From contig CAYJUC010000003.1 in assembly GCA_964372605.1 (NCBI GenBank), forward strand, positions 1 through 35,896: 35,896 nucleotides of DNA, in the 5' to 3' direction. A program made the translations under genes and the position numbers. Shown here in pieces: positions 5,089-23,190 of the stretch. This DNA comes from an uncultured bacterium (GTDB lineage: Bacteria > Methylomirabilota > Methylomirabilia > Rokubacteriales > CSP1-6). The first letter of the stretch is position 1. Each line of letters opens with the position of its first letter. The notes under the pieces were generated by a model that ran no database searches, was not told the origin of the DNA, and saw only the letters and a program-made list of their open reading frames with translations.

Positions 5089-5160
5089 CGTGCGGTAGGC
5101 ATACCACAGCGATCTTGGGGCGTCAACGGTCGGTCCGGCAGCTCCTTCGGGGATTTTTGA

Positions 5161-5189
5161 TTGACAGGGTGGGACGGGGGATTTATGGT
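5161..5189 (+). promoter_or_regulatory. Candidate sigma-70 promoter TTGACA-17-TATGGT upstream of the adenosyltransferase gene
   Basis: TTGACA at 5161..5166, a 17-nt spacer, then TATGGT at 5184..5189. The ATG at 5204 is only 14 nt past the -10, so the leader would be very short. Confidence 0.35.
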
Positions 5190-5203
5190 GAGTTTTGCGC
5201 GAT

Positions 5204-5776
5204 ATGGTCAAGATTTACACCAAAAAAGGCGACGAGGGCCAGACCAGTCTTCTGGGAGGACAGCGGATCTCCAAGTCCGATCTCCGCCCGGAGGCGTACG
5301 GGACCCTCGACGAAGCCTGCTCGGTTCTTGGGGTGGCTCGGGCTGCGAACCAAGACGAAGAGCTGAAGGCGGTGATCCACACCATTCAACAGGATCTCTT
5401 CCTCTTGGGGGCCGAGCTGGCCACAGCGCCCGAGGACCGGGGCCGGTTCAACTTCCGGCTCACCGCCAAGCACACCGCCCAGCTGGAGTCGCTCATCGAT
5501 GCCAGGTTATCCAAGATCGAGCTTCCGCGGGCCTTTATCATTCCCGGCTCCTCCTCCTACATTCCCTCGCTCCTGGACTGGGCCCGGGCCGTGGTCCGCC
5601 GCGGCGAGCGGAGGGTGGTGGAACTCAAGGAGGCGGGGCTTCTCGAAAACCCCGAGGTCTTGAAATACATGAACCGGCTCGCCGATCTCCTCTTCGTTCT
5701 GGCCCGGTACCAGGAGGCCGTGGAGGGGAAGGGCGCGGTTCAGTGGAAGGGCCGCCGAGAGGGGATCACTTCTTAG
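5204..5776 (+). CDS. ATP:cob(I)alamin adenosyltransferase, PduO/MMAB type
   Basis: The N-terminus MVKIYTKKGDEGQTSLLGG matches the conserved KIYTKxGDxGxT start of PduO-type adenosyltransferases. The length (~190 aa) fits. The ORF-track start at 5195 adds 3 residues. Confidence 0.85.
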   Translation: MVKIYTKKGDEGQTSLLGGQRISKSDLRPEAYGTLDEACSVLGVARAANQDEELKAVIHTIQQDLFLLGAELATAPEDRGRFNFRLTAKHTAQLESLIDARLSKIELPRAFIIPGSSSYIPSLLDWARAVVRRGERRVVELKEAGLLENPEVLKYMNRLADLLFVLARYQEAVEGKGAVQWKGRREGITS

Positions 5777-5797
5777 CCAACCCAGGGGCGAAGAGCC

Positions 5798-6538
5798 ATG
5801 GGACGAGGCGGTCGCGTCATCTGGTCCATTGTGATCCCGGCCTACGATGAGGCTCATCGGTTGCCCGCCTACCTCCAGCGGGTCCTCGCCTACTTTCAGG
5901 AGCGTGGGGAATCCTACGAGGTCCTTGTCGTCGATGACGGCAGCCGGGATGGCACAGCCGACGGCGTTCGGGAGCTGCAGCGCGCGTGGGACCAGATCAA
6001 GTTGATCGTGCTCCCGTCCAACCGGGGGAAGGGATACGCGGTCCGGGTGGGGATGGTGAACGCGGTCGGCGACTTTCGCCTGTTCGCGGACGCCGACGGG
6101 GCCACACCGATCCTGGAGCTGAACCGGTTGGAGGCGGCGCTCAAAGGAGGCGCCGACATCGTGATCGGCTCTCGAGTCCTGACCGATCCCGAGGTGTCGG
6201 TCCGGGCGCTGCCGCATCGAAAGATGGTGGGGCGACTGTTCAACTGGCTGGTGGCGGGGATCGGCCTCAAGGGGATCGCCGATTCCCAGTGCGGTTTCAA
6301 GCTCTTCCGCGCCCCGACGGCGGAGGATCTTTTTCGCTCCCTCAGGACCGACGGCTTCGGCTTCGACGTGGAGCTTCTGCTGCTGGCCCAGCGGCGCGGC
6401 TACAGGGTGACCGAGGTTCCCGTCAACTGGGCTGATCAGCCGGGCAGCAAGCTCTGGGTGATCGCCGAAGGCCCCAAAATGCTCCGCCAGATCCTCTCGG
6501 CCCGCGCCAACCTGGCCCTCGGCCGCTACGATCGATGA
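5798..6538 (+). CDS. Family 2 glycosyltransferase (polyprenyl/dolichyl-phosphate sugar synthase-like)
   Basis: WSIVIPAYDE...VLVVDDGSRDGT...FADADG are typical GT-A/GT2 nucleotide-sugar binding and DxD motifs. The protein is 246 aa and soluble. Confidence 0.85.
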   Translation: MGRGGRVIWSIVIPAYDEAHRLPAYLQRVLAYFQERGESYEVLVVDDGSRDGTADGVRELQRAWDQIKLIVLPSNRGKGYAVRVGMVNAVGDFRLFADADGATPILELNRLEAALKGGADIVIGSRVLTDPEVSVRALPHRKMVGRLFNWLVAGIGLKGIADSQCGFKLFRAPTAEDLFRSLRTDGFGFDVELLLLAQRRGYRVTEVPVNWADQPGSKLWVIAEGPKMLRQILSARANLALGRYDR

Positions 6539-7713
6539 GCGCCGCAGGCGACCACGCGGAAGACCAGCGGGTTGCGCGGCGGGCCCGGCAGATCGAGCCG
6601 TTCCTGGCCGTAGAAGTCTTCGAGAAGGCCCAGGAGCTGGAGCGGCACGGGATCGACGTGATCCACCTGGAGTTCGGCGAACCGGACTTCGAGACCCCAG
6701 CCGTAATCCGGGAAGCGGCGCTCCGGGCCATCAAGGACGGCCGCACAAAGTACACGGCCAGCCTGGGAATCCTTCCCCTCCGGGAAGCCATCGCCGAGCA
6801 CTATCAGGCTACCTACGGCGTCCGGGTCTCCCCCGAGCAGATTCTCGTGACGCCCGGGACCTCTCCCGCCCTGCTCCTCCTCTTCACCGGCCTCCTCGAT
6901 CCGGAGGATCAGGTGATCCTCTCCGATCCCCACTACGCCTGCTATCCCAACTTCGTCCGCTACGCGGAAGGGGAGCCGGTTTCTGTGAATGTCTACGAGG
7001 AGGACGAATTCCAGTACCGCCCCGAAGCGATCCGCCGGCAGCTCAGCCAGCGGGTGAAGGCGATCATGATCAACTCGCCGGCCAATCCCACCGGGACCTG
7101 CCTCTCCCACCAGCGGATGGCCGCCGTGGCGGAGCTGGGACCGTGGATCATCTCGGACGAGATTTACCACGGTCTCAGCTACGAGGGGCGGGACCACAGC
7201 ATCCTCGAGTACACGGACCGGGCCTTCGTCCTGAACGGCTTCTCCAAGGCCTTTGCCATGACCGGATGGCGGCTCGGCTATCTGATCGCCCCCAGGCCGT
7301 TCGTCCGCCCGCTCCAGAAAGCCTTTCAGAACTTCTTCATCTCGACCTGCGACTTCGTCCAGTGGGCCGGGGTGGCCGCCTTGAAAGAGGCCGGCGGAGA
7401 GGTCCTGAGGTTCAGGCGGATCTTCGACGAGCGCAGGCGGGCCACGATCGCCGGCCTGCGCGAGGCCGGCCTGGGGGTCGGCTATGAGCCCACCGGGGCC
7501 TTTTACGTTCTGGCCAACGCCAGGCGCTACACTCAAAAGTCGTTCGATTTCGCCTTCGAGATCCTGGAGAATGCCCATGTGGGAGTCACGCCGGGAATCG
7601 ACTTCGGCCTGAACGCCGAGGGGTATCTTCGCGTCTCGTACGCCAACTCGCTGGACCGGATCCTGGAAGGCGTTCGCCGGATCGGGAAGTTTCTGGGCTC
7701 GCTCGGCCGATGA
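6535..7713 (+). CDS. Class I/II pyridoxal-phosphate-dependent aminotransferase (aspartate aminotransferase-like)
   Basis: NSPANPTG and SKAFAMTGWRLGY (PLP lysine) motifs; 392 aa. The start overlaps the GT2 stop (ATGA). Confidence 0.85.
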   Translation: MSAAGDHAEDQRVARRARQIEPFLAVEVFEKAQELERHGIDVIHLEFGEPDFETPAVIREAALRAIKDGRTKYTASLGILPLREAIAEHYQATYGVRVSPEQILVTPGTSPALLLLFTGLLDPEDQVILSDPHYACYPNFVRYAEGEPVSVNVYEEDEFQYRPEAIRRQLSQRVKAIMINSPANPTGTCLSHQRMAAVAELGPWIISDEIYHGLSYEGRDHSILEYTDRAFVLNGFSKAFAMTGWRLGYLIAPRPFVRPLQKAFQNFFISTCDFVQWAGVAALKEAGGEVLRFRRIFDERRRATIAGLREAGLGVGYEPTGAFYVLANARRYTQKSFDFAFEILENAHVGVTPGIDFGLNAEGYLRVSYANSLDRILEGVRRIGKFLGSLGR

Positions 7714-15823: not shown

Positions 15824-17747
<1,924 letters not shown>

Positions 17748-17773
17748 GGTCGGGCGTCGGCCATCGCCCCCTG

Positions 17774-17800
17774 AGGCCCCGGATGGGGCCTTTGCGTTTT
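17774..17800 (+). terminator. Rho-independent terminator after frr
   Basis: AGGCCCC-GGAT-GGGGCCT, a 7-bp GC stem, followed by TTGCGTTTT. Confidence 0.65.
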
Positions 17801-17859
17801 ACAGAGGATGTTTCTGCCTTGAATCGGCGCTGGACTTTTGAGTAAGATACTGGAAGAGC

Positions 17860-18651: not shown

Positions 18652-19530
18652 ATGCAATCCCCGTTCCCGGACGCGGGGGCGACTTCGCCCGCGCCAAAGG
18701 CCACCGAGCTGACCCCTGTTTCTCCGTGGGTGGTGCCTCTGGCAAAGCGCGTGGGGAGCGCGGCTCTCTTCCTGCCGTTCTTCGTCTGGCTCGTGGAGTA
18801 CTCGCCGGCGTGGCTGTTCCCGGCCTTCGTGGTCCTGGTAGGAAGCGTGGGGCAGTGGGAGTTCACGCGGATGTTCGCCCGGTCCGGATCGGAGGTTTAC
18901 CCCTGGCTGGGTCTTCTGGCCGGAGTCGCCATCACCGCGAGCTTCGCGGTGCCCGGGGCGGGTCCGGCCGTCCTGACCCTGACGGTGGCCGCGTTCCTGA
19001 GCCAGAGCCTGGCGAAGACGGGGCCGTCCGGTCCGACGTGGGAACCGTGCGCCCTGACCTTTCTGGGGGTTGTCTACGTGAACTGGCTCCTGGGCTACTC
19101 ACTCTGGCTGCGGGCTCTGCCGCACGGGGCGGACTGGATCTTTCTCCTGGTGTGGGTGACGTGGGTGGGAGAATCCACGGCGTATCTGGTCGGCACCGCC
19201 GTAGGTCGGCGCAGGCTGTCGCCCCGGATCAGCCCGGCCAAAACCGTCGAGGGCGCGGTCGCCCAGCTCCTCGTATCGCTCCCGGCAGCGCTGGCCGGAC
19301 GGTGGTGGTTTTTCCCGGAGTGCTCGGTGAAAGACGCGCTGATCGTGGGGCTGATCCTCGGGTGCATAGGCCAAGTGGGGGACCTGGTGGAATCCTTGCT
19401 CAAGCGGAGCGCCCACACCAAGGACACAGGGCGCCTGATCCCGGGGCACGGCGGGTTGCTGGACCGGCTCGACAGCCTGCTCTTCAACACGCCGGCGTTG
19501 TTTTACTACGCGCGTTACCTGGCGACATGA
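18652..19530 (+). CDS. cdsA: Phosphatidate cytidylyltransferase
   Basis: A 292-aa multi-TM protein with the C-terminal signature SLLKRSAHTKDTGRLIPGHGGLLDRLDSL. Confidence 0.85.
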   Translation: MQSPFPDAGATSPAPKATELTPVSPWVVPLAKRVGSAALFLPFFVWLVEYSPAWLFPAFVVLVGSVGQWEFTRMFARSGSEVYPWLGLLAGVAITASFAVPGAGPAVLTLTVAAFLSQSLAKTGPSGPTWEPCALTFLGVVYVNWLLGYSLWLRALPHGADWIFLLVWVTWVGESTAYLVGTAVGRRRLSPRISPAKTVEGAVAQLLVSLPAALAGRWWFFPECSVKDALIVGLILGCIGQVGDLVESLLKRSAHTKDTGRLIPGHGGLLDRLDSLLFNTPALFYYARYLAT

Positions 19531-19578
19531 CACTGCGGTGAATCATCGGGTCGCCGCCGGGAGAGGGGGACTTTACTC

Positions 19579-20919
19579 GTGACCGCGATCGTTTCGTTTG
19601 TCGTCGTAATCGGGATCCTGATTTTGATTCATGAGCTGGGACATTTCTTTGCGGCCCGACGGATGGGAGTCGGGGTCGAGCGCTTCTCCGTAGGGTTCGG
19701 CCCCATCCTGTTCCGCCTGAAGCGCGGCGAAACCGAATACTGCCTCTCGGCCGTTCCCCTGGGCGGATACGTGAAAATGGTCGGCGAAGACCCCCGGGAG
19801 GGCGAGTCCGCGATTCCCGTCGCCCCCGAAAAGTCCTTCGCCCTGAAACCTCTTTGGGCGCGAAGCCTGATCGTGTTCGCCGGTCCGGGGATGAACTTCG
19901 TGCTCGCCGCGGCCATCTTCGCGGCGGTCTTCATGGTCACTGGCCGGCCGGTGCTGCCGTCGGTCATCGGACGGATCCAACCGGGGTCCCCCGCGGCGCA
20001 GGCGGGGCTACAGACCGAGGACCGGGTGATCGCGATGGACGGGAAGGCCGTGGCCCACTGGGACGATCTGGTCAAGGCTCTTCAGTCCTCCCACGGCGAG
20101 ACCGTTCAGCTCACGATCCGGCGGGGCGAGGCCGAGCGGAAGCTGGCCCTGACCCCAGCGCGGACCAAGGTGAAAGATGTCTTCGGTAGCGAGCAGGAGA
20201 TCTGGGATCTGGGGGCCCGGCCCTATATCCCCGCCAGAGTCGGGGAAGTGCTGGCCGGCTACCCGGCCGCCAAGGCGGGCCTCAGAGCCGGAGACGTTAT
20301 GACCGCGCTGGACGGGGCGGCCGTCTTGTCGTGGGAAGAGCTGGCTGAGGGAATCCACAAGCGCCCCGGGCGCAAGGTGGCGCTCAGCGTGCGGCGGGGC
20401 GGGGAGTCGCTGACCATCGAGGTCGTTCCCCAGGCCACGAAACAGCGGTCGCCGTCAGGGGAGGAGACCCTGGTGGGCCTGATCGGGATCAGCCCCGCCG
20501 GAGCCGTCACCTACGTTCGGTCGAATCCCGTCGTCGCCATGGGGGAGGGAATCATCCGAACCGGCGAGATCACCGCGCTCACCGTGGTCGGGCTCTGGAA
20601 GCTCGTGAAGCGGGAGCTTCCGGCCTCCGCCATCGGCGGGCCGCTCCAGATCGCGGTGTCGGCGGGAGAACAGGCCCGGCAGGGATTCACCAGCCTGGCG
20701 TTCTTCACCGCCGTGATCAGCATCAACCTGGCCGTGCTGAACCTGCTGCCGGTGCCCATGCTGGATGGCGGCCACCTTTTCTTTTTCGCCATCGAGTCGG
20801 TGATGGGGCGCCCGCTCTCCGTGCGGAAGCGGGAGCTGGCCCAGCAGGTGGGGTTCTTTCTTCTGGCGCTCCTCATGGTCTTCGCGATGTACAACGACAT
20901 CCAGCGATTCTTCAGATAG
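19579..20919 (+). CDS. rseP: RIP site-2 metalloprotease RseP
   Basis: HELGHF zinc motif in TM1, two PDZ-like regions, and C-terminal NLLPVPMLDGGH. Confidence 0.9.
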   Translation: MTAIVSFVVVIGILILIHELGHFFAARRMGVGVERFSVGFGPILFRLKRGETEYCLSAVPLGGYVKMVGEDPREGESAIPVAPEKSFALKPLWARSLIVFAGPGMNFVLAAAIFAAVFMVTGRPVLPSVIGRIQPGSPAAQAGLQTEDRVIAMDGKAVAHWDDLVKALQSSHGETVQLTIRRGEAERKLALTPARTKVKDVFGSEQEIWDLGARPYIPARVGEVLAGYPAAKAGLRAGDVMTALDGAAVLSWEELAEGIHKRPGRKVALSVRRGGESLTIEVVPQATKQRSPSGEETLVGLIGISPAGAVTYVRSNPVVAMGEGIIRTGEITALTVVGLWKLVKRELPASAIGGPLQIAVSAGEQARQGFTSLAFFTAVISINLAVLNLLPVPMLDGGHLFFFAIESVMGRPLSVRKRELAQQVGFFLLALLMVFAMYNDIQRFFR

Positions 20920-20928
20920 GAGCGGGCG

Positions 20929-23118
20929 ATGACACAAAGACGGAAGACGCGTCAGATTCAACTGGGCGGGGTCAAAGTGGGCGGGGACGCCCCCATCACC
21001 GTTCAGTCCATGACCAAAACCGACACCCGCGACGTGGAAGCAACCGTGCTCCAGGTCTGGTCCCTCGAGGCCGCCGGCTGCGACATCGTCCGGTGCGCGG
21101 TTCCGGACAAAGAGGCGGCGCTGAGCCTCGGCCGGATCAAGCGGCAGATCCGGATCCCCCTGGTGGCGGATATCCACTTCAACTATAAGCTGGCGCTCCT
21201 CGCCCTGGATCAGGGAGTGGATGGCCTCCGCCTGAATCCGGGGAACATCGGGGGAAAGCAGTTCGTGATGGACGTCGTGAAGATGGCTCAGGCGCGAAAG
21301 ATTCCGATCCGGATCGGCGTCAACGCCGGCTCCCTGGAGCGGGACCTGCTGGCCAAGTATAACGGTCCGACGGCCCAGGGAATGGTGGAGTCCGCGCTCC
21401 GCCACATCCGGATCCTGGAGGAGTGCGGCTACCCGGAGATGAAGATCTCGCTCAAGGCCTCCGACCCGGCCATGATGATCGAGGCCTACCGGATGCTGGC
21501 CGATCAGGTGGAGTACCCGTTCCATCTGGGGGTGACCGAGGCGGGGACCCCGACGGTCGGCACCATAAAGTCAGCGGTTGGCCTCGGCACGCTTCTCGCT
21601 GAAGGGATCGGTGACACGATTCGCGTGTCGCTTGCGGCGGATCCGGTGGAGGAGGTGCGGGTCGGGATCGAGATTCTCAAGGCCCTGGGGTTCCGAAAGC
21701 AGGGGCTGACCTTCGTGGCCTGCCCCTCCTGCGGCCGGGCCGATGTGGACCTGGTGAAGCTGGCCAGGGACGTAGAGGAGCGATTGAAAGGGATCACCGC
21801 CGAGGTGCACGTGGCCGTGATGGGATGCCTGCCTTCTGGTCAGCAGGTTGTCACCAGGGCGGGCCCGAAGCCCATTGAGGCCATCGAGGAGGGCGAGGAG
21901 GTCCTGACCAATGCGGGGTCGTATCAGAAAGTGCTCTGGTCAACCAGCCACACCTACGAGGGCGAGCTGGTGGAGGTGCGTCCCACAGGCTTTCCCCCCT
22001 TCCGGCTCACTCCCAACCATCCGGTGTGGGCCTTCCCTCGGCCCTCAAAGCGGAAGGGGGGTAGAGACAAGCGCCGGCATATTCTGAGCGTCCTGGAAGA
22101 GGGGATCGAGCCGAAATGGGTGAATGCCGGCGAGCTTAGTCCTGGATGGGTCTTAGCCTTTCCGGTTCTCCAGGAAAAAGAAGACCGCGCGACGCTGACA
22201 GCCGATGGGCTCGGCGTCATCCCGGTTGACGAGGACTTTCTCACCTTGTGTGGCTACTACCTGGCTGAAGGTACGCTGTCGGGGGAATATGGAAAGCCTT
22301 ACCAGCAGTTCTTCTACTTTCACGAACGGGAGGCCGCCTATGTAGAGAAGCTCCGGACCATCCTAGGAAGCCTCGGGCTCAAATCGAGCCTTCAGCACAG
22401 GCGTCATGCGACCGAGGTCATTACTCACTCCCTCGCCCTGGGAACGCTACTGGAGAGTCTCTTTACGCGAGGGGCGGAGGCCAAGCACCTCCCCGGCTGG
22501 ATGGTGACACTCCCTCACGAGAAACAGCGGGCGCTGATTCGGGCCCTGTGGGAAGGAGACGGCTATCTGGGTTGTGTCAGGGGTTACTGGCGGGCCGCTT
22601 ACTGCACGTCCTCGTGGAGGCTCGCTGTGCAGGTCCACCAGATCGTGCTCCGTCTCGGAATCGCTGCGTTCCTGCATCATCGCGATCAGCGGGGCCGGAA
22701 ACGGAACTGGGTCATTTCGGTCACTTCCAAGCCGGCTCTGGCCCGGCTCCGCCAGGTGCTCGGGCTCCCCGCGACGCTTGAGTCCGACGCCTCCAGGACG
22801 GGGCAGGTGGTGATCGATCAGCAAGCCCTGTATGTCGGCGTGCGCGCGGTTCGACGGATCCCTTACGCTGGCCACGTCCATAACCTGGAGGTGGAGGGTG
22901 TTCATTCCTTCTCGGTTCCTGGCGCGGCCTTGCATAACTGCGAGGTGAACGGCCCGGGCGAGGCGCGCGCCGCCGACATCGGCGTGGCCGGCGGGAAGGG
23001 GATCGGCCTGATCTTTCGTAAGGGAGTCGTCGTGCGGAAGGTACCGGAGGCTCAGATCGTGGATGCCGTCTGGGAGGAGGTCGAGCGGTTCATCGCCGAG
23101 CGGGAAGTTCTCAAATGA
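20929..23118 (+). CDS. ispG: 4-hydroxy-3-methylbut-2-en-1-yl diphosphate synthase (flavodoxin), interrupted in frame by an intein
   Basis: The N-extein (aa 1-299) carries the TIM-barrel motifs (APITVQSMT, LRLNPGNIG, HLGVTEAG) and CPSCGR. The C-extein (aa 671-729) begins CEVNGPGEA. The exteins sum to 358 aa, a normal IspG length; the precursor is 729 aa. Confidence 0.9.
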   Translation: MTQRRKTRQIQLGGVKVGGDAPITVQSMTKTDTRDVEATVLQVWSLEAAGCDIVRCAVPDKEAALSLGRIKRQIRIPLVADIHFNYKLALLALDQGVDGLRLNPGNIGGKQFVMDVVKMAQARKIPIRIGVNAGSLERDLLAKYNGPTAQGMVESALRHIRILEECGYPEMKISLKASDPAMMIEAYRMLADQVEYPFHLGVTEAGTPTVGTIKSAVGLGTLLAEGIGDTIRVSLAADPVEEVRVGIEILKALGFRKQGLTFVACPSCGRADVDLVKLARDVEERLKGITAEVHVAVMGCLPSGQQVVTRAGPKPIEAIEEGEEVLTNAGSYQKVLWSTSHTYEGELVEVRPTGFPPFRLTPNHPVWAFPRPSKRKGGRDKRRHILSVLEEGIEPKWVNAGELSPGWVLAFPVLQEKEDRATLTADGLGVIPVDEDFLTLCGYYLAEGTLSGEYGKPYQQFFYFHEREAAYVEKLRTILGSLGLKSSLQHRRHATEVITHSLALGTLLESLFTRGAEAKHLPGWMVTLPHEKQRALIRALWEGDGYLGCVRGYWRAAYCTSSWRLAVQVHQIVLRLGIAAFLHHRDQRGRKRNWVISVTSKPALARLRQVLGLPATLESDASRTGQVVIDQQALYVGVRAVRRIPYAGHVHNLEVEGVHSFSVPGAALHNCEVNGPGEARAADIGVAGGKGIGLIFRKGVVVRKVPEAQIVDAVWEEVERFIAEREVLK
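21826..22938 (+). mobile_element. Class 1 intein with LAGLIDADG homing-endonuclease domain (371 aa) within ispG
   Basis: Starts with Cys (CLPSGQQVV, block A). Block B TxxH (LTPNHPV). LAGLIDADG motifs LCGYYLAEGT (about 22237..22275) and LIRALWEGDGYL (about 22531..22569). Blocks F/G VHNLEVEGVHSFSVPGAALHN, followed by the +1 Cys (TGC 22939..22941). Confidence 0.85.
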
Positions 23119-23190
23119 ATGCGGAATGTGGAGTGCGGAATGAGTAAGGAGCGTCCCCTTTTCGCATTCCGCATTCCGAATTCGCCATTC
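23117..23190. repeat. Imperfect 26-bp inverted repeat (21/26) built from GGAATG/CATTCC units; candidate ispG terminator or REP-like element
   Basis: The left arm (23117..23142, gaatgcggaatgtggagtgcggaatg) pairs with the right arm (23165..23190, cattccgcattccgaattcgccattc). The 22-nt loop contains AAGGAG and CCCCTTTT. The segment is low-GC relative to its flanks. Confidence 0.55.

What the first reader, a model, noticed from the sequence alone, without database searches (positions are those of the whole stretch)
21811..22950. The intein is inserted exactly at an Fe-S cluster ligand cysteine, so the +1 splice nucleophile doubles as a [4Fe-4S] ligand
Established knowledge: the IspG [4Fe-4S] cluster is held by three Cys and one Glu, in the pattern CxxC ... 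GC-x-VNGPGE. Here CPSC provides C265 and C268. The third ligand is the Cys encoded at 22939..22941, the intein +1 residue, which becomes C300 after splicing, followed by E307 in NGPGE. The unspliced precursor separates this ligand from the first two by 371 aa, so it presumably cannot assemble the cluster. The Cys1/Cys+1 pair could also form a disulfide. Inference: splicing, and therefore MEP-pathway flux, might be redox-conditional, as reported for some Cys1/Cys+1 inteins. Alternatively the site simply reflects homing into a maximally conserved sequence.
Basis: inference. Interest (0 to 1): 0.65.

Follow-up and report, generated by a model that had tools for sequence, protein, structure and literature searches.

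The report
Mobile intein at IspG's iron-sulfur cysteine
The essential isoprenoid enzyme IspG of this groundwater bacterium is interrupted by a self-splicing, mobile protein element that sits exactly at one of the three cysteines holding the enzyme's iron-sulfur cluster; this makes a tidy new test case for conditional splicing, but the data point to an ordinary selfish intein.

Summary
ORF 20929..23118 (+) encodes IspG/GcpE interrupted by a 371-aa class-1 intein (nt 21826..22938) that carries a LAGLIDADG homing endonuclease. Removing the intein gives a 358-aa IspG that aligns without gaps to Aquifex IspG (3NOY). Its cysteines are C265 and C268 (CPSC) and C300, followed by E307. C300 is the intein's +1 residue (nt 22939..22941). 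In 108 diverse IspGs these are the only three conserved cysteines.

The same site carries related inteins in 14 Methylomirabilota/Rokuibacteriota genomes and about 50 metagenome proteins. These include endonuclease-less mini-inteins and a second lineage about 42% identical. The closest IspG relatives (up to 91% identical) lack the intein and read VAVMGCEVNGPGE. Occupied and empty alleles are interleaved in the host tree, and one pair shares 60/60 identical flanking bases. Contigs that skip the intein precisely coexist with it in the same groundwater metagenomes. Both intein domains are under purifying selection.

The best reading is a selfish homing intein in a conserved motif, whose splicing is needed before the cluster site exists. 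Redox-conditional splicing is chemically plausible but untested. No paper in the searchable library describes an IspG intein. I class it as a new member of a known kind, of moderate interest.

The parts
20929..23118 (+). ispG (gcpE) precursor ORF, 729 aa plus stop. A GGAG ribosome-binding site lies 7 nt upstream of the ATG.
   Evidence: Pfam GcpE E=1.8e-143; NCBIfam equivalog NF001540, 478 bits
20929..21825 (+). N-extein, aa 1-299. It holds the TIM-barrel domain and the first part of the Fe-S domain, and ends ...HVAVMG.
21721..21732 (+). CPSC motif: cluster ligands C265 and C268
   Evidence: 97-98% conserved in 108 diverse IspGs
21826..22938 (+). Class-1 intein, 371 aa, made of a Hint splicing domain, a DNA-recognition region and a LAGLIDADG endonuclease
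   Evidence: predicted fold matches the TliVMA intein 7qsu, TM 0.72 on the target, and PI-SceI
21826..21828 (+). Intein Cys1, block A, the first nucleophile
   Evidence: invariant in the 17 aligned inteins
22009..22020 (+). Block B, T-P-N-H (intein T62 and H65)
22246..22272 (+). LAGLIDADG motif 1, LCGYYLAEG, with the catalytic Glu
22546..22572 (+). LAGLIDADG motif 2, LWEGDGYLG, with the catalytic Asp
22876..22893 (+). Block F, VHNLEV
22903..22938 (+). Block G, HSFSVPGAALHN, ending in the penultimate His and terminal Asn
22939..22941 (+). Cys+1, the second splice nucleophile. It becomes C300 of mature IspG, the third [4Fe-4S] ligand.
   Evidence: (invariant in 43 sequences)
22960..22962 (+). 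Glu678 of the precursor, E307 of mature IspG, the fourth (carboxylate) ligand in NGPGE
22939..23118 (+). C-extein, 59 aa plus stop, starting CEVNGPGEARAADIG

Best explanation
This is a canonical class-1 intein with an embedded LAGLIDADG homing endonuclease. It sits in the single housekeeping-context ispG gene of a Methylomirabilota/Rokuibacteriota groundwater bacterium, between G299 and C300 of the signature VAVMG|C(E/V)VNGPGE.

Inferred mechanism, from the standard class-1 pathway. After translation the Hint domain folds. Cys1 makes a thioester with G299. The thiol of Cys+1 attacks it to form the branched intermediate. The terminal Asn cyclises and releases the intein. An S-to-N shift then leaves a normal G299-C300 peptide bond. 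Only at that point does the contiguous loop GC-x-VNGPGE exist, in which the same thiol (C300) and E307 join C265 and C268 to hold the [4Fe-4S] cluster. Splicing is therefore an obligatory maturation step upstream of cluster insertion, and the +1 Cys is used twice in sequence: first as nucleophile, then as ligand.

The choice of site is best explained by the biology of homing. The endonuclease targets a DNA stretch that cannot drift, and the element needs a conserved C/S/T to keep as +1. The element is, or recently was, mobile within this phylum, and it is repeatedly lost or reduced to a mini-intein.

Shown here: the anatomy, the site, the distribution, selection on the intein and the coexistence of empty sites. 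Inferred: that the intein splices, that the endonuclease cuts, and that the precursor is inactive.
For: Anatomy. C1, T-x-x-H, blocks F and G, the terminal HN and C+1 are all present and conserved across the 17 aligned inteins (12 full-length, one with most of the endonuclease deleted, 4 mini-inteins). Both LAGLIDADG motifs, with their acidic residues, are present and are conserved in 11 of the 12 full-length copies (L005 has EGGG). The AF2 model gives pLDDT >90 for most of the intein and matches endonuclease-bearing VMA inteins.

Exact restoration. Removing aa 300-670 gives VAVMGCEVNGPGEARAADIG, identical to 19 of 19 intein-less close relatives inspected.

Same site elsewhere. It is occupied in 14 Methylomirabilota/Rokuibacteriota MAG loci. 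It also holds 142-aa mini-inteins (P0050, P0053, P0054, P0055) and a lineage about 42% identical in an IspG only 54% identical to the query P0059 (P0190, P0031).

Mobility or turnover. Intein-bearing, mini-intein and intein-less alleles are interleaved in the extein tree. The intein-less locus L015 shares 60/60 flanking nucleotides with the intein-bearing L001. Contigs that skip 21826..22938 precisely (GGA-TGT-GAA-GTG) occur alongside intein-bearing contigs in metagenome runs X1, X2 and X4. Synonymous divergence of intein and host gene disagrees in both directions: L004/L007 0.28 for the extein against about 0.85 for the intein, and L001/L003 0.67 against about 0.42. Intein GC3 is 0.73 against 0.85 for the extein and 0.82-0.85 for the neighbours.

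Selection. dN/dS is 0.10-0.30 for the endonuclease part and 0.13-0.41 for the Hint part.

Site statistics. All three conserved Cys of IspG are ligands, and only 8 conserved C/S/T sites exist.

Context. The gene sits in uppS-cdsA-rseP-ispG-proS-rimP-nusA-infB, so this is the core chromosomal copy.
Against: No experiment shows splicing or endonuclease activity. The intein tree broadly follows the extein tree, so much of the pattern could be vertical descent with repeated precise loss rather than active homing. dS is near saturation (about 1) for several pairs. The intein-skipping contigs are short, and many laid contigs are only 90-95% like the window, so they may come from related species rather than the same population. 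Whether these genomes hold a second, uninterrupted ispG was not checked. Novikova et al. [quoted passage not shown]
Confidence: 0.85

Rival explanations
1. Adaptive conditional splicing. The intein has been co-opted as a redox or Fe-S-status switch. Under oxidising conditions a Cys1-Cys+1 disulfide, or a mixed disulfide or metal site that also uses C265 and C268, holds the precursor unspliced. New IspG then matures only when the oxygen-labile cluster could survive, which would tune MEP-pathway flux and MEcPP accumulation.
For: Both nucleophiles are Cys, and a CxxC pair lies 32-35 residues upstream. A C1-C+1 disulfide blocks splicing of the P. abyssi PolII intein, and the M. tuberculosis SufB and M. 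smegmatis DnaBi1 inteins respond to oxidants (PMC5874633, PMC4031507, PMC6195587). IspG is oxygen-sensitive, and its substrate MEcPP accumulates under oxidative stress and acts as a stress signal (PMC11192765). Insertion at a functional residue is described as rare (PMC4760082). The intein has persisted long enough to split into lineages 42% identical at the same site.
Against: Close relatives living in the same groundwater communities do without the intein, which argues against an important regulatory role. The intein keeps a selected homing endonuclease and decays to mini-inteins, which is the usual life cycle of a selfish element. Redox sensitivity is not universal among class-1 Cys inteins (PMC6195587). 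Mature IspG is already inactivated by oxidants through its cluster, so a second layer of control adds little that is obvious. Nothing in the sequence distinguishes a regulated intein from a constitutive one.
Confidence: 0.12
2. Immobile passenger. The endonuclease in this copy no longer cuts, and the intein persists only because any imprecise deletion would destroy an essential ligand loop. The distribution would then reflect one ancient invasion followed by rare precise losses, not ongoing homing.
For: The intein and extein trees share the same three major groups. One relative has lost the motif-2 Asp (L005, EGGG), and several have lost the whole endonuclease. Identity between inteins (65-80%) is lower than between their exteins (79-91%).
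Against: Both catalytic acidic residues are intact in the window copy. The endonuclease region shows dN/dS of 0.10-0.17 in the pairs that involve the window. Intein and extein dS are discordant, including a case where the inteins are closer than their hosts (L001/L003). Empty sites with identical flanks exist.
Confidence: 0.25
3. Dead gene. The insert does not splice, this ispG is a pseudogene, and another copy or pathway supplies isoprenoid precursors.
For: One related locus (L011) has an in-frame deletion that removes blocks F and G together with CEVNGPGEAR, which cannot give active IspG. A second copy was not searched for.
Against: The 729-codon frame is open. Every splicing residue is intact and under purifying selection. 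Extein dN/dS is 0.05-0.10. The gene lies in the conserved housekeeping cluster with a proper ribosome-binding site.
Confidence: 0.03

Closest known systems
PI-SceI / VMA1-type inteins (class-1 intein with embedded LAGLIDADG homing endonuclease; structures 1VDE, 1LWS, TliVMA 7QSU)
   Same: Same architecture: a Hint domain split by a DNA-recognition region and a two-motif LAGLIDADG endonuclease. Cys1, terminal His-Asn and Cys+1 are present. The best structural matches of the model are 7qsu (TM 0.72 on the target) and PI-SceI. The insertion is in a highly conserved motif of an essential enzyme.
   Different: Sequence identity is only 13-18%. The host is a metabolic Fe-S enzyme, not an ATPase. The retained +1 Cys is a cofactor ligand.
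Pyrococcus abyssi PolII intein (Cys1-Cys+1 disulfide redox trap)
   Same: Class-1 intein whose two catalytic cysteines can in principle form an intramolecular disulfide that blocks splicing (PMC5874633, PMC4031507).
   Different: No detectable specific sequence relationship. Disulfide formation has not been shown here. In PolII the +1 Cys is not known to be a cofactor ligand.
Mycobacterium tuberculosis SufB intein and M. smegmatis DnaBi1 intein (oxidative and nitrosative stress-sensitive splicing)
   Same: These are inteins in essential proteins whose splicing is inhibited by ROS or RNS through catalytic cysteines. SufB also links an intein to Fe-S metabolism (PMC6195587, PMC8891592).
   Different: SufB is a scaffold for cluster assembly rather than a cluster enzyme interrupted at a ligand. 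DnaBi1 is a class-3 intein. No stress data exist for the IspG intein.
Intein-containing radical-SAM tetraether lipid synthase Tes (NCBIfam NF045703)
   Same: A curated example of an intein inside an Fe-S enzyme. There is weak similarity to the endonuclease part of the present intein (E=3.5e-5).
   Different: Different host, and its insertion site relative to the cluster ligands was not examined here. NCBIfam has no corresponding exception model for IspG.

Membership tests
Class-1 intein | Cys or Ser as first residue (block A) | tested here: met
   Cys at aa 300 (nt 21826..21828). It is invariant in the 17 aligned inteins. One assembled protein, P0056, has Trp at this position.
Class-1 intein | Block B T-x-x-H | tested here: met
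   T62-P-N-H65 of the intein, nt 22009..22020. H65 is invariant in the 17 aligned inteins, and T62 is kept in all of them (the T-x-N/Q/S-H block).
Class-1 intein | C-terminal His-Asn followed by Cys, Ser or Thr at +1 (block G) | tested here: met
   The sequence is ...AALHN|C. Two relatives (P0012, L010) have Lys-Asn.
Class-1 intein | Hint fold | tested here: met
   Pfam Hint_2 scores 30.5 bits against a cut-off of 28.4. The AF2 model is high-confidence and superposes on VMA inteins.
Class-1 intein | In-frame insertion whose removal restores the contiguous sequence seen in uninterrupted homologues | tested here: met
   The spliced sequence VAVMGCEVNGPGE is identical to 19 intein-less relatives. 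At DNA level the empty site in L015 has flanks identical to L001.
Class-1 intein | Autocatalytic protein splicing | not testable with these tools
   Needs expression and detection of ligated exteins plus free intein.
LAGLIDADG homing endonuclease (two-motif, intein-borne) | Two LAGLIDADG motifs, each with a catalytic acidic residue | tested here: met
   LCGYYLAEG and LWEGDGYLG are present. Pfam LAGLIDADG_3 gives E=4.4e-13.
LAGLIDADG homing endonuclease (two-motif, intein-borne) | Site-specific cleavage of the intein-less allele | not testable with these tools
   Only indirect support: dN/dS of 0.10-0.30 on this region and coexisting empty sites.
IspG/GcpE (two-domain bacterial type) | TIM-barrel N-domain plus C-terminal Fe-S domain, at full-length equivalog score | tested here: met
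   Pfam GcpE E=1.8e-143. NCBIfam NF001540 scores 478 bits against a cut-off of 345. 3NOY matches at E=2.8e-112 over residues 1-349.
IspG/GcpE (two-domain bacterial type) | CxxC ... GC-x-VNGPGE ligand set (three Cys plus one Glu) | tested here: met
   C265, C268, C300 and E307 are present after conceptual splicing and align to the ligand residues of 3NOY and 2Y0F. They are the only conserved Cys in 108 representatives.
Redox-conditional inteins (PolII, SufB, DnaBi1 type) | Catalytic cysteines able to pair (Cys1 with Cys+1 or another Cys) | tested here: met
   Both nucleophiles are Cys. This feature is necessary but not sufficient.
Redox-conditional inteins (PolII, SufB, DnaBi1 type) | Disulfide observed in the precursor, and splicing reversibly inhibited by oxidants | not testable with these tools
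   No experimental data exist. AF2 modelling of the precursor against the intein-less control was inconclusive.

The most novel reading that the evidence does not exclude
The IspG intein is a physiological maturation gate. In the precursor the four neighbouring thiols (C265, C268, intein Cys1 and Cys+1) form a disulfide or bind a metal or cluster. This reversibly blocks splicing, so new IspG is released only under reducing, iron-sufficient conditions. Protein splicing would then be coupled directly to the oxidative-stress-sensing node (MEcPP) of the MEP pathway.
Probability: 0.1. Interest if true: 0.75.

Novelty: new member of a known kind. Interest (0 to 1): 0.42.

Why it matters
[quoted passage not shown] Here an essential Fe-S enzyme of central metabolism is interrupted exactly at a cluster ligand. 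The same thiol must first do splicing chemistry and then bind iron.

That makes it a clean natural system for asking whether splicing and cofactor insertion compete or are ordered. It also allows a test of whether Cys1/Cys+1 inteins confer redox control on an enzyme that is already a known oxygen-sensitive bottleneck (PMC11192765).

The family offers built-in controls: full inteins, mini-inteins and intein-less alleles occur in near-identical host genes.

Practically, it explains why ispG is split, mis-called or annotated as 'partial' or 'homing endonuclease' in many Rokuibacteriota/Methylomirabilota MAGs. It also suggests that an intein-exception model for IspG is missing from annotation pipelines.

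Tried and rejected
1. Literature searches found nothing relevant for intein with IspG, with GcpE, with '4-hydroxy-3-methylbut-2-en', or for extein with 4Fe-4S. Searches for the ligand residue numbers also found nothing. The primary papers on the PolII, MoaA and SufB redox inteins are not held, so I cited reviews instead.

2. A sequence search of the intein against PDB gave only marginal hits (E about 0.3-0.5). The fold search was needed to place it.

3. I modelled the precursor with AlphaFold2 to ask whether the cluster site can form before splicing. The Fe-S loops have pLDDT <50 in the precursor. I rejected this as evidence either way.

4. I looked for further inteins in the window by tblastn and found none.

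5. I considered shifted intein boundaries, with the intein starting at Leu and the N-extein ending in GC. I rejected this because only C...HN|C fits the class-1 rules and the conserved blocks.

6. I considered that low intein GC3 alone proves recent foreign origin. It is only suggestive (0.73 against 0.85).

7. The context of the distant-clade locus L016 gave no taxonomic information.
Full report
**What is there.** The window's ORF 20929..23118 (+) encodes a 729-aa protein. Pfam finds GcpE/IspG (E=1.8e-143) in two stretches, and between them a Hint domain and a LAGLIDADG_3 domain. NCBIfam gives the IspG equivalog NF001540 at 478 bits against a cut-off of 345.

The insert runs from Cys300 (TGC, 21826..21828) to His-Asn670 (22933..22938). 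It is 371 aa long and is followed by Cys671 (22939..22941). It has the full set of class-1 intein blocks:
- block A, Cys1;
- block B, T62-P-N-H65;
- block F, VHNLEV;
- block G, HSFSVPGAALHN|C.

It also has two LAGLIDADG motifs with their acidic residues, LCGYYLAEG and LWEGDGYLG. An AlphaFold2 model of the precursor gives pLDDT >90 for most of the intein. Its best structural matches are IspG 3NOY for the exteins, and endonuclease-bearing VMA inteins for the insert (TliVMA 7qsu, TM 0.72 on the target; PI-SceI).

The gene lies in a core housekeeping cluster, argC-argJ-rpsB-tsf-pyrH-...-uppS-cdsA-rseP-ispG-proS-rimP-nusA-infB-...-truB-ribF. A GGAG sits 7 nt before the ATG. No other intein is present in the window.

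**Checking the observation.** Conceptual splicing gives a 358-aa IspG with Cys at 51, 56, 166, 265, 268 and 300 and Glu at 307. It aligns without a single gap to A. aeolicus IspG (3NOY, E=2.8e-112). The chain is offset by 9 residues of tag, so numbering is identical. VACPSCGR aligns with VACPTCGR and VAVMGCEVNGPGEAR with VAVMGCVVNAIGEAR. Against T. thermophilus 2Y0F the same residues fall on C297, C300, C343 and E350.

From my own knowledge of the two structure papers (Lee et al. 2010; Rekittke et al. 2011), these are the published ligand sets. The three-Cys-plus-Glu coordination is stated in PMC9919496. PMC8835842 states that three conserved cysteines bind the cluster and that activity drops sharply when any of them is changed to Ser.

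As an independent check I aligned 108 full-length IspG representatives from a library clustered at 50% identity. Only C265, C268 and C300 are conserved cysteines (97-98%); C51 is 74% conserved and C56 and C166 are not conserved. In an alignment of 43 intein-bearing, mini-intein and intein-less sequences, C671 is one of only two invariant columns.

One subtlety remains. In the precursor the intein's own Cys1 occupies the native context VAVMG-C, and profile HMMs align it to the ligand column. It is the splicing mechanism, not the alignment, that identifies the +1 Cys as the residue retained.

**Is the coincidence surprising?** Only moderately. An intein keeps a Cys, Ser or Thr as its +1 residue, and homing endonucleases target DNA that cannot drift. 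IspG has only 8 positions with a conserved C/S/T: S135, S174, T203, T230, S234, C265, C268 and C300. The junction 299|300 ranks 14th of 348 for local conservation. Three of the 8 candidate sites, and all 3 cysteine sites, are cluster ligands.

[quoted passage not shown] The case is therefore a good specimen rather than a routine one.

**Relatives.** A search with the intein found 58 proteins. Almost all are IspG or IspG fragments with the insert at exactly this site, and sources call them 'intein/homing endonuclease', 'LAGLIDADG family homing endonuclease, partial' or 'IspG, partial' from Rokubacteria or Methylomirabilales.

A scan of one genome per species found 14 loci, all in Methylomirabilota/Rokuibacteriota MAGs. 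Eleven of them show the site intact, VAVMG|C...[H/K]N|CEVNGPGE; of the other three, L013 runs off its contig and L011 and L012 are aberrant.

Three further forms occupy the same site:
- 142-aa mini-inteins that lack precisely the endonuclease and the DNA-recognition region (P0050, P0053, P0054, P0055; IspG of 506-507 aa);
- a partly deleted form (P0026);
- a second lineage only about 42% identical, in an IspG that is 54% identical to the intein-less query P0059 and reads CVVNGPGE (P0031-33, P0190).

More distant intein relatives sit in other hosts, such as QueC (P0049, 31% identical).

**Evidence on how it behaves.**
- The closest IspG relatives of the window, up to 91% identical, have no intein. 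All 19 inspected read VAVMGCEVNGPGEARAADIG, exactly the predicted spliced sequence.
- In a neighbour-joining tree of exteins, the intein-bearing, mini-intein and intein-less alleles are interleaved. For example, intein-less P0060 groups with intein-bearing L001, L002 and L003, and mini-intein P0053 groups with intein-less P0171 and P0177.
- The intein-less locus L015 (encoding P0060) has 60 of 60 flanking nucleotides identical to intein-bearing L001.
- The window's allele is found in groundwater metagenomes, with up to 94% of its words held. In runs X1, X2 and X4, contigs that carry the intein coexist with contigs that jump from 21824/21827 to 22945/22948. The bridging letters reconstruct GGA-TGT-GAA-GTG, that is G-C-E-V, a precise empty site. 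These contigs are short and may belong to related strains or species.
- Nei-Gojobori estimates give dN/dS of 0.13-0.41 for the Hint part and 0.10-0.30 for the endonuclease part, against 0.04-0.12 for the exteins. The endonuclease is therefore being maintained.
- Synonymous divergence of intein and host gene disagrees in both directions. For L004/L007 it is 0.28 in the extein against about 0.85 in the intein. For L001/L003 it is 0.67 against about 0.42. This is expected if inteins move between alleles. Several pairs are near saturation, so this is indicative only.
- Intein GC3 is 0.73, against 0.85 for the extein and 0.82-0.85 for the neighbouring genes.
- Against active movement, the intein tree shares the three major groups of the extein tree. 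One copy has lost the motif-2 Asp (L005). Much of the history is therefore vertical descent with losses.

**Mechanism proposed.** Shown: the anatomy, the site and the evolutionary behaviour. Inferred from the established class-1 pathway (reviewed in PMC4031507):
1. Cys1 forms a thioester with G299.
2. The thiol of Cys+1 attacks it.
3. Asn371 of the intein cyclises.
4. An S-to-N shift makes the G299-C300 peptide bond.

Only then does the loop GC-x-VNGPGE exist as a continuous chain in which C300 and E307 can join C265 and C268 around the cluster. Splicing is thus an obligatory step before holo-enzyme formation.

The precursor is very likely inactive. IspG must dock its cluster face onto the partner subunit's TIM barrel (PMC11192765), and a 42-kDa domain would protrude from that loop. 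This last point is an inference.

Intein termini are adjacent in the Hint fold, and Cys1 sits in the native context. I tried to test the point by modelling. The Fe-S loops have pLDDT <50 in the precursor, but the intein-less control built from the same alignment is also poor there. The result is inconclusive.

**The redox idea.** It has chemical precedent. A Cys1-Cys+1 disulfide blocks the P. abyssi PolII intein. The M. tuberculosis SufB and M. smegmatis DnaBi1 inteins are inhibited by oxidants (PMC5874633, PMC4031507, PMC6195587). [quoted passage not shown]

But redox sensitivity is not universal among class-1 Cys inteins (PMC6195587). Nothing in the sequence marks this intein as regulated. 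Close relatives in the same habitats manage without it. I rate an adaptive switch at about 0.1. Some inhibition by oxidants in vitro is far more likely, but would not by itself show a function.

**Novelty.** I found no paper that mentions an intein in IspG/GcpE. NCBIfam has intein-exception models for GyrA, RecA and the radical-SAM enzyme Tes, but none for IspG. The sequences are in public MAGs, partly mis-annotated. The element is a standard kind, a class-1 intein with a LAGLIDADG endonuclease, in a new host and at a notable residue. I classify it as a new member of a known kind, with interest about 0.4.

Noticed in passing
window 23117..23183 (ispG-proS intergenic region): A long hairpin is built from tandem heptads (GAATGCG, GAATGTG, GAGTGCG, GAATGAG) and their reverse complements. 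MFE is -38.4 kcal/mol and z = -5.3 against shuffles. In run X4 a variant contig carries 4-, 5- and 10-nt deletions here. It could be a terminator or a REP-like element; which is unknown.
   Followed up: partly
L012 5587..7297: This MAG contig carries an intein-bearing ispG that breaks off after about 308 intein residues. It is followed by a repeat of the segment [25 protein letters not shown]...VAVMGC joined directly to EVNGPGE, with no intein. It looks like an assembly chimera of intein-bearing and intein-less alleles from one population.
   Followed up: partly
L011 about 5100..7116: An in-frame deletion joins the intein sequence ...SRLASILGLG directly to AADIGVAGG. This removes intein blocks F and G and the extein CEVNGPGEAR, including the ligand Cys and Glu. 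It is either a dead allele or an assembly artefact.
   Followed up: no
P0012 and L010 (6001..7188): These two inteins end in Lys-Asn instead of His-Asn, and L010 has a 25-residue insertion before block F. They form a separate branch together with L009.
   Followed up: no
P0056 (507 aa, read-assembled source): A mini-intein IspG with Trp in place of the intein's Cys1 (VAVMGW VPEG). If real it could not start splicing. It may be a sequencing or assembly error.
   Followed up: no
P0190, P0031-P0033, L016: A second intein lineage about 42% identical occupies the same site in an IspG that is only 54% identical to the intein-less query P0059 (CVVNGPGE). Its taxon is unknown. In L016 the ispG is followed by a CfrBI-like restriction-modification pair.
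   Followed up: partly
P0049 (634 aa): The nearest non-IspG relative of the intein (31% identical) interrupts a QueC-like protein (PF06508) at ...WWDP|C...VHN|CRNAILL.
   Followed up: no
window 18652..20919: cdsA is followed directly by rseP, with no dxr between them. Many bacteria have uppS-cdsA-dxr-rseP. The dxr gene must lie elsewhere.
   Followed up: no
window 17159..17845: The longest ORF between pyrH and uppS has no Pfam hit. The overlapping 188-aa ORF 17181..17747 in another frame is the likely frr. I did not check this.
   Followed up: no
P0191 (535 aa): An actinobacterial-type IspG representative has the segment VPLRVAVMGCVVNGP duplicated in tandem around the ligand Cys. It is probably an assembly artefact and is unrelated to the intein.
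   Followed up: no
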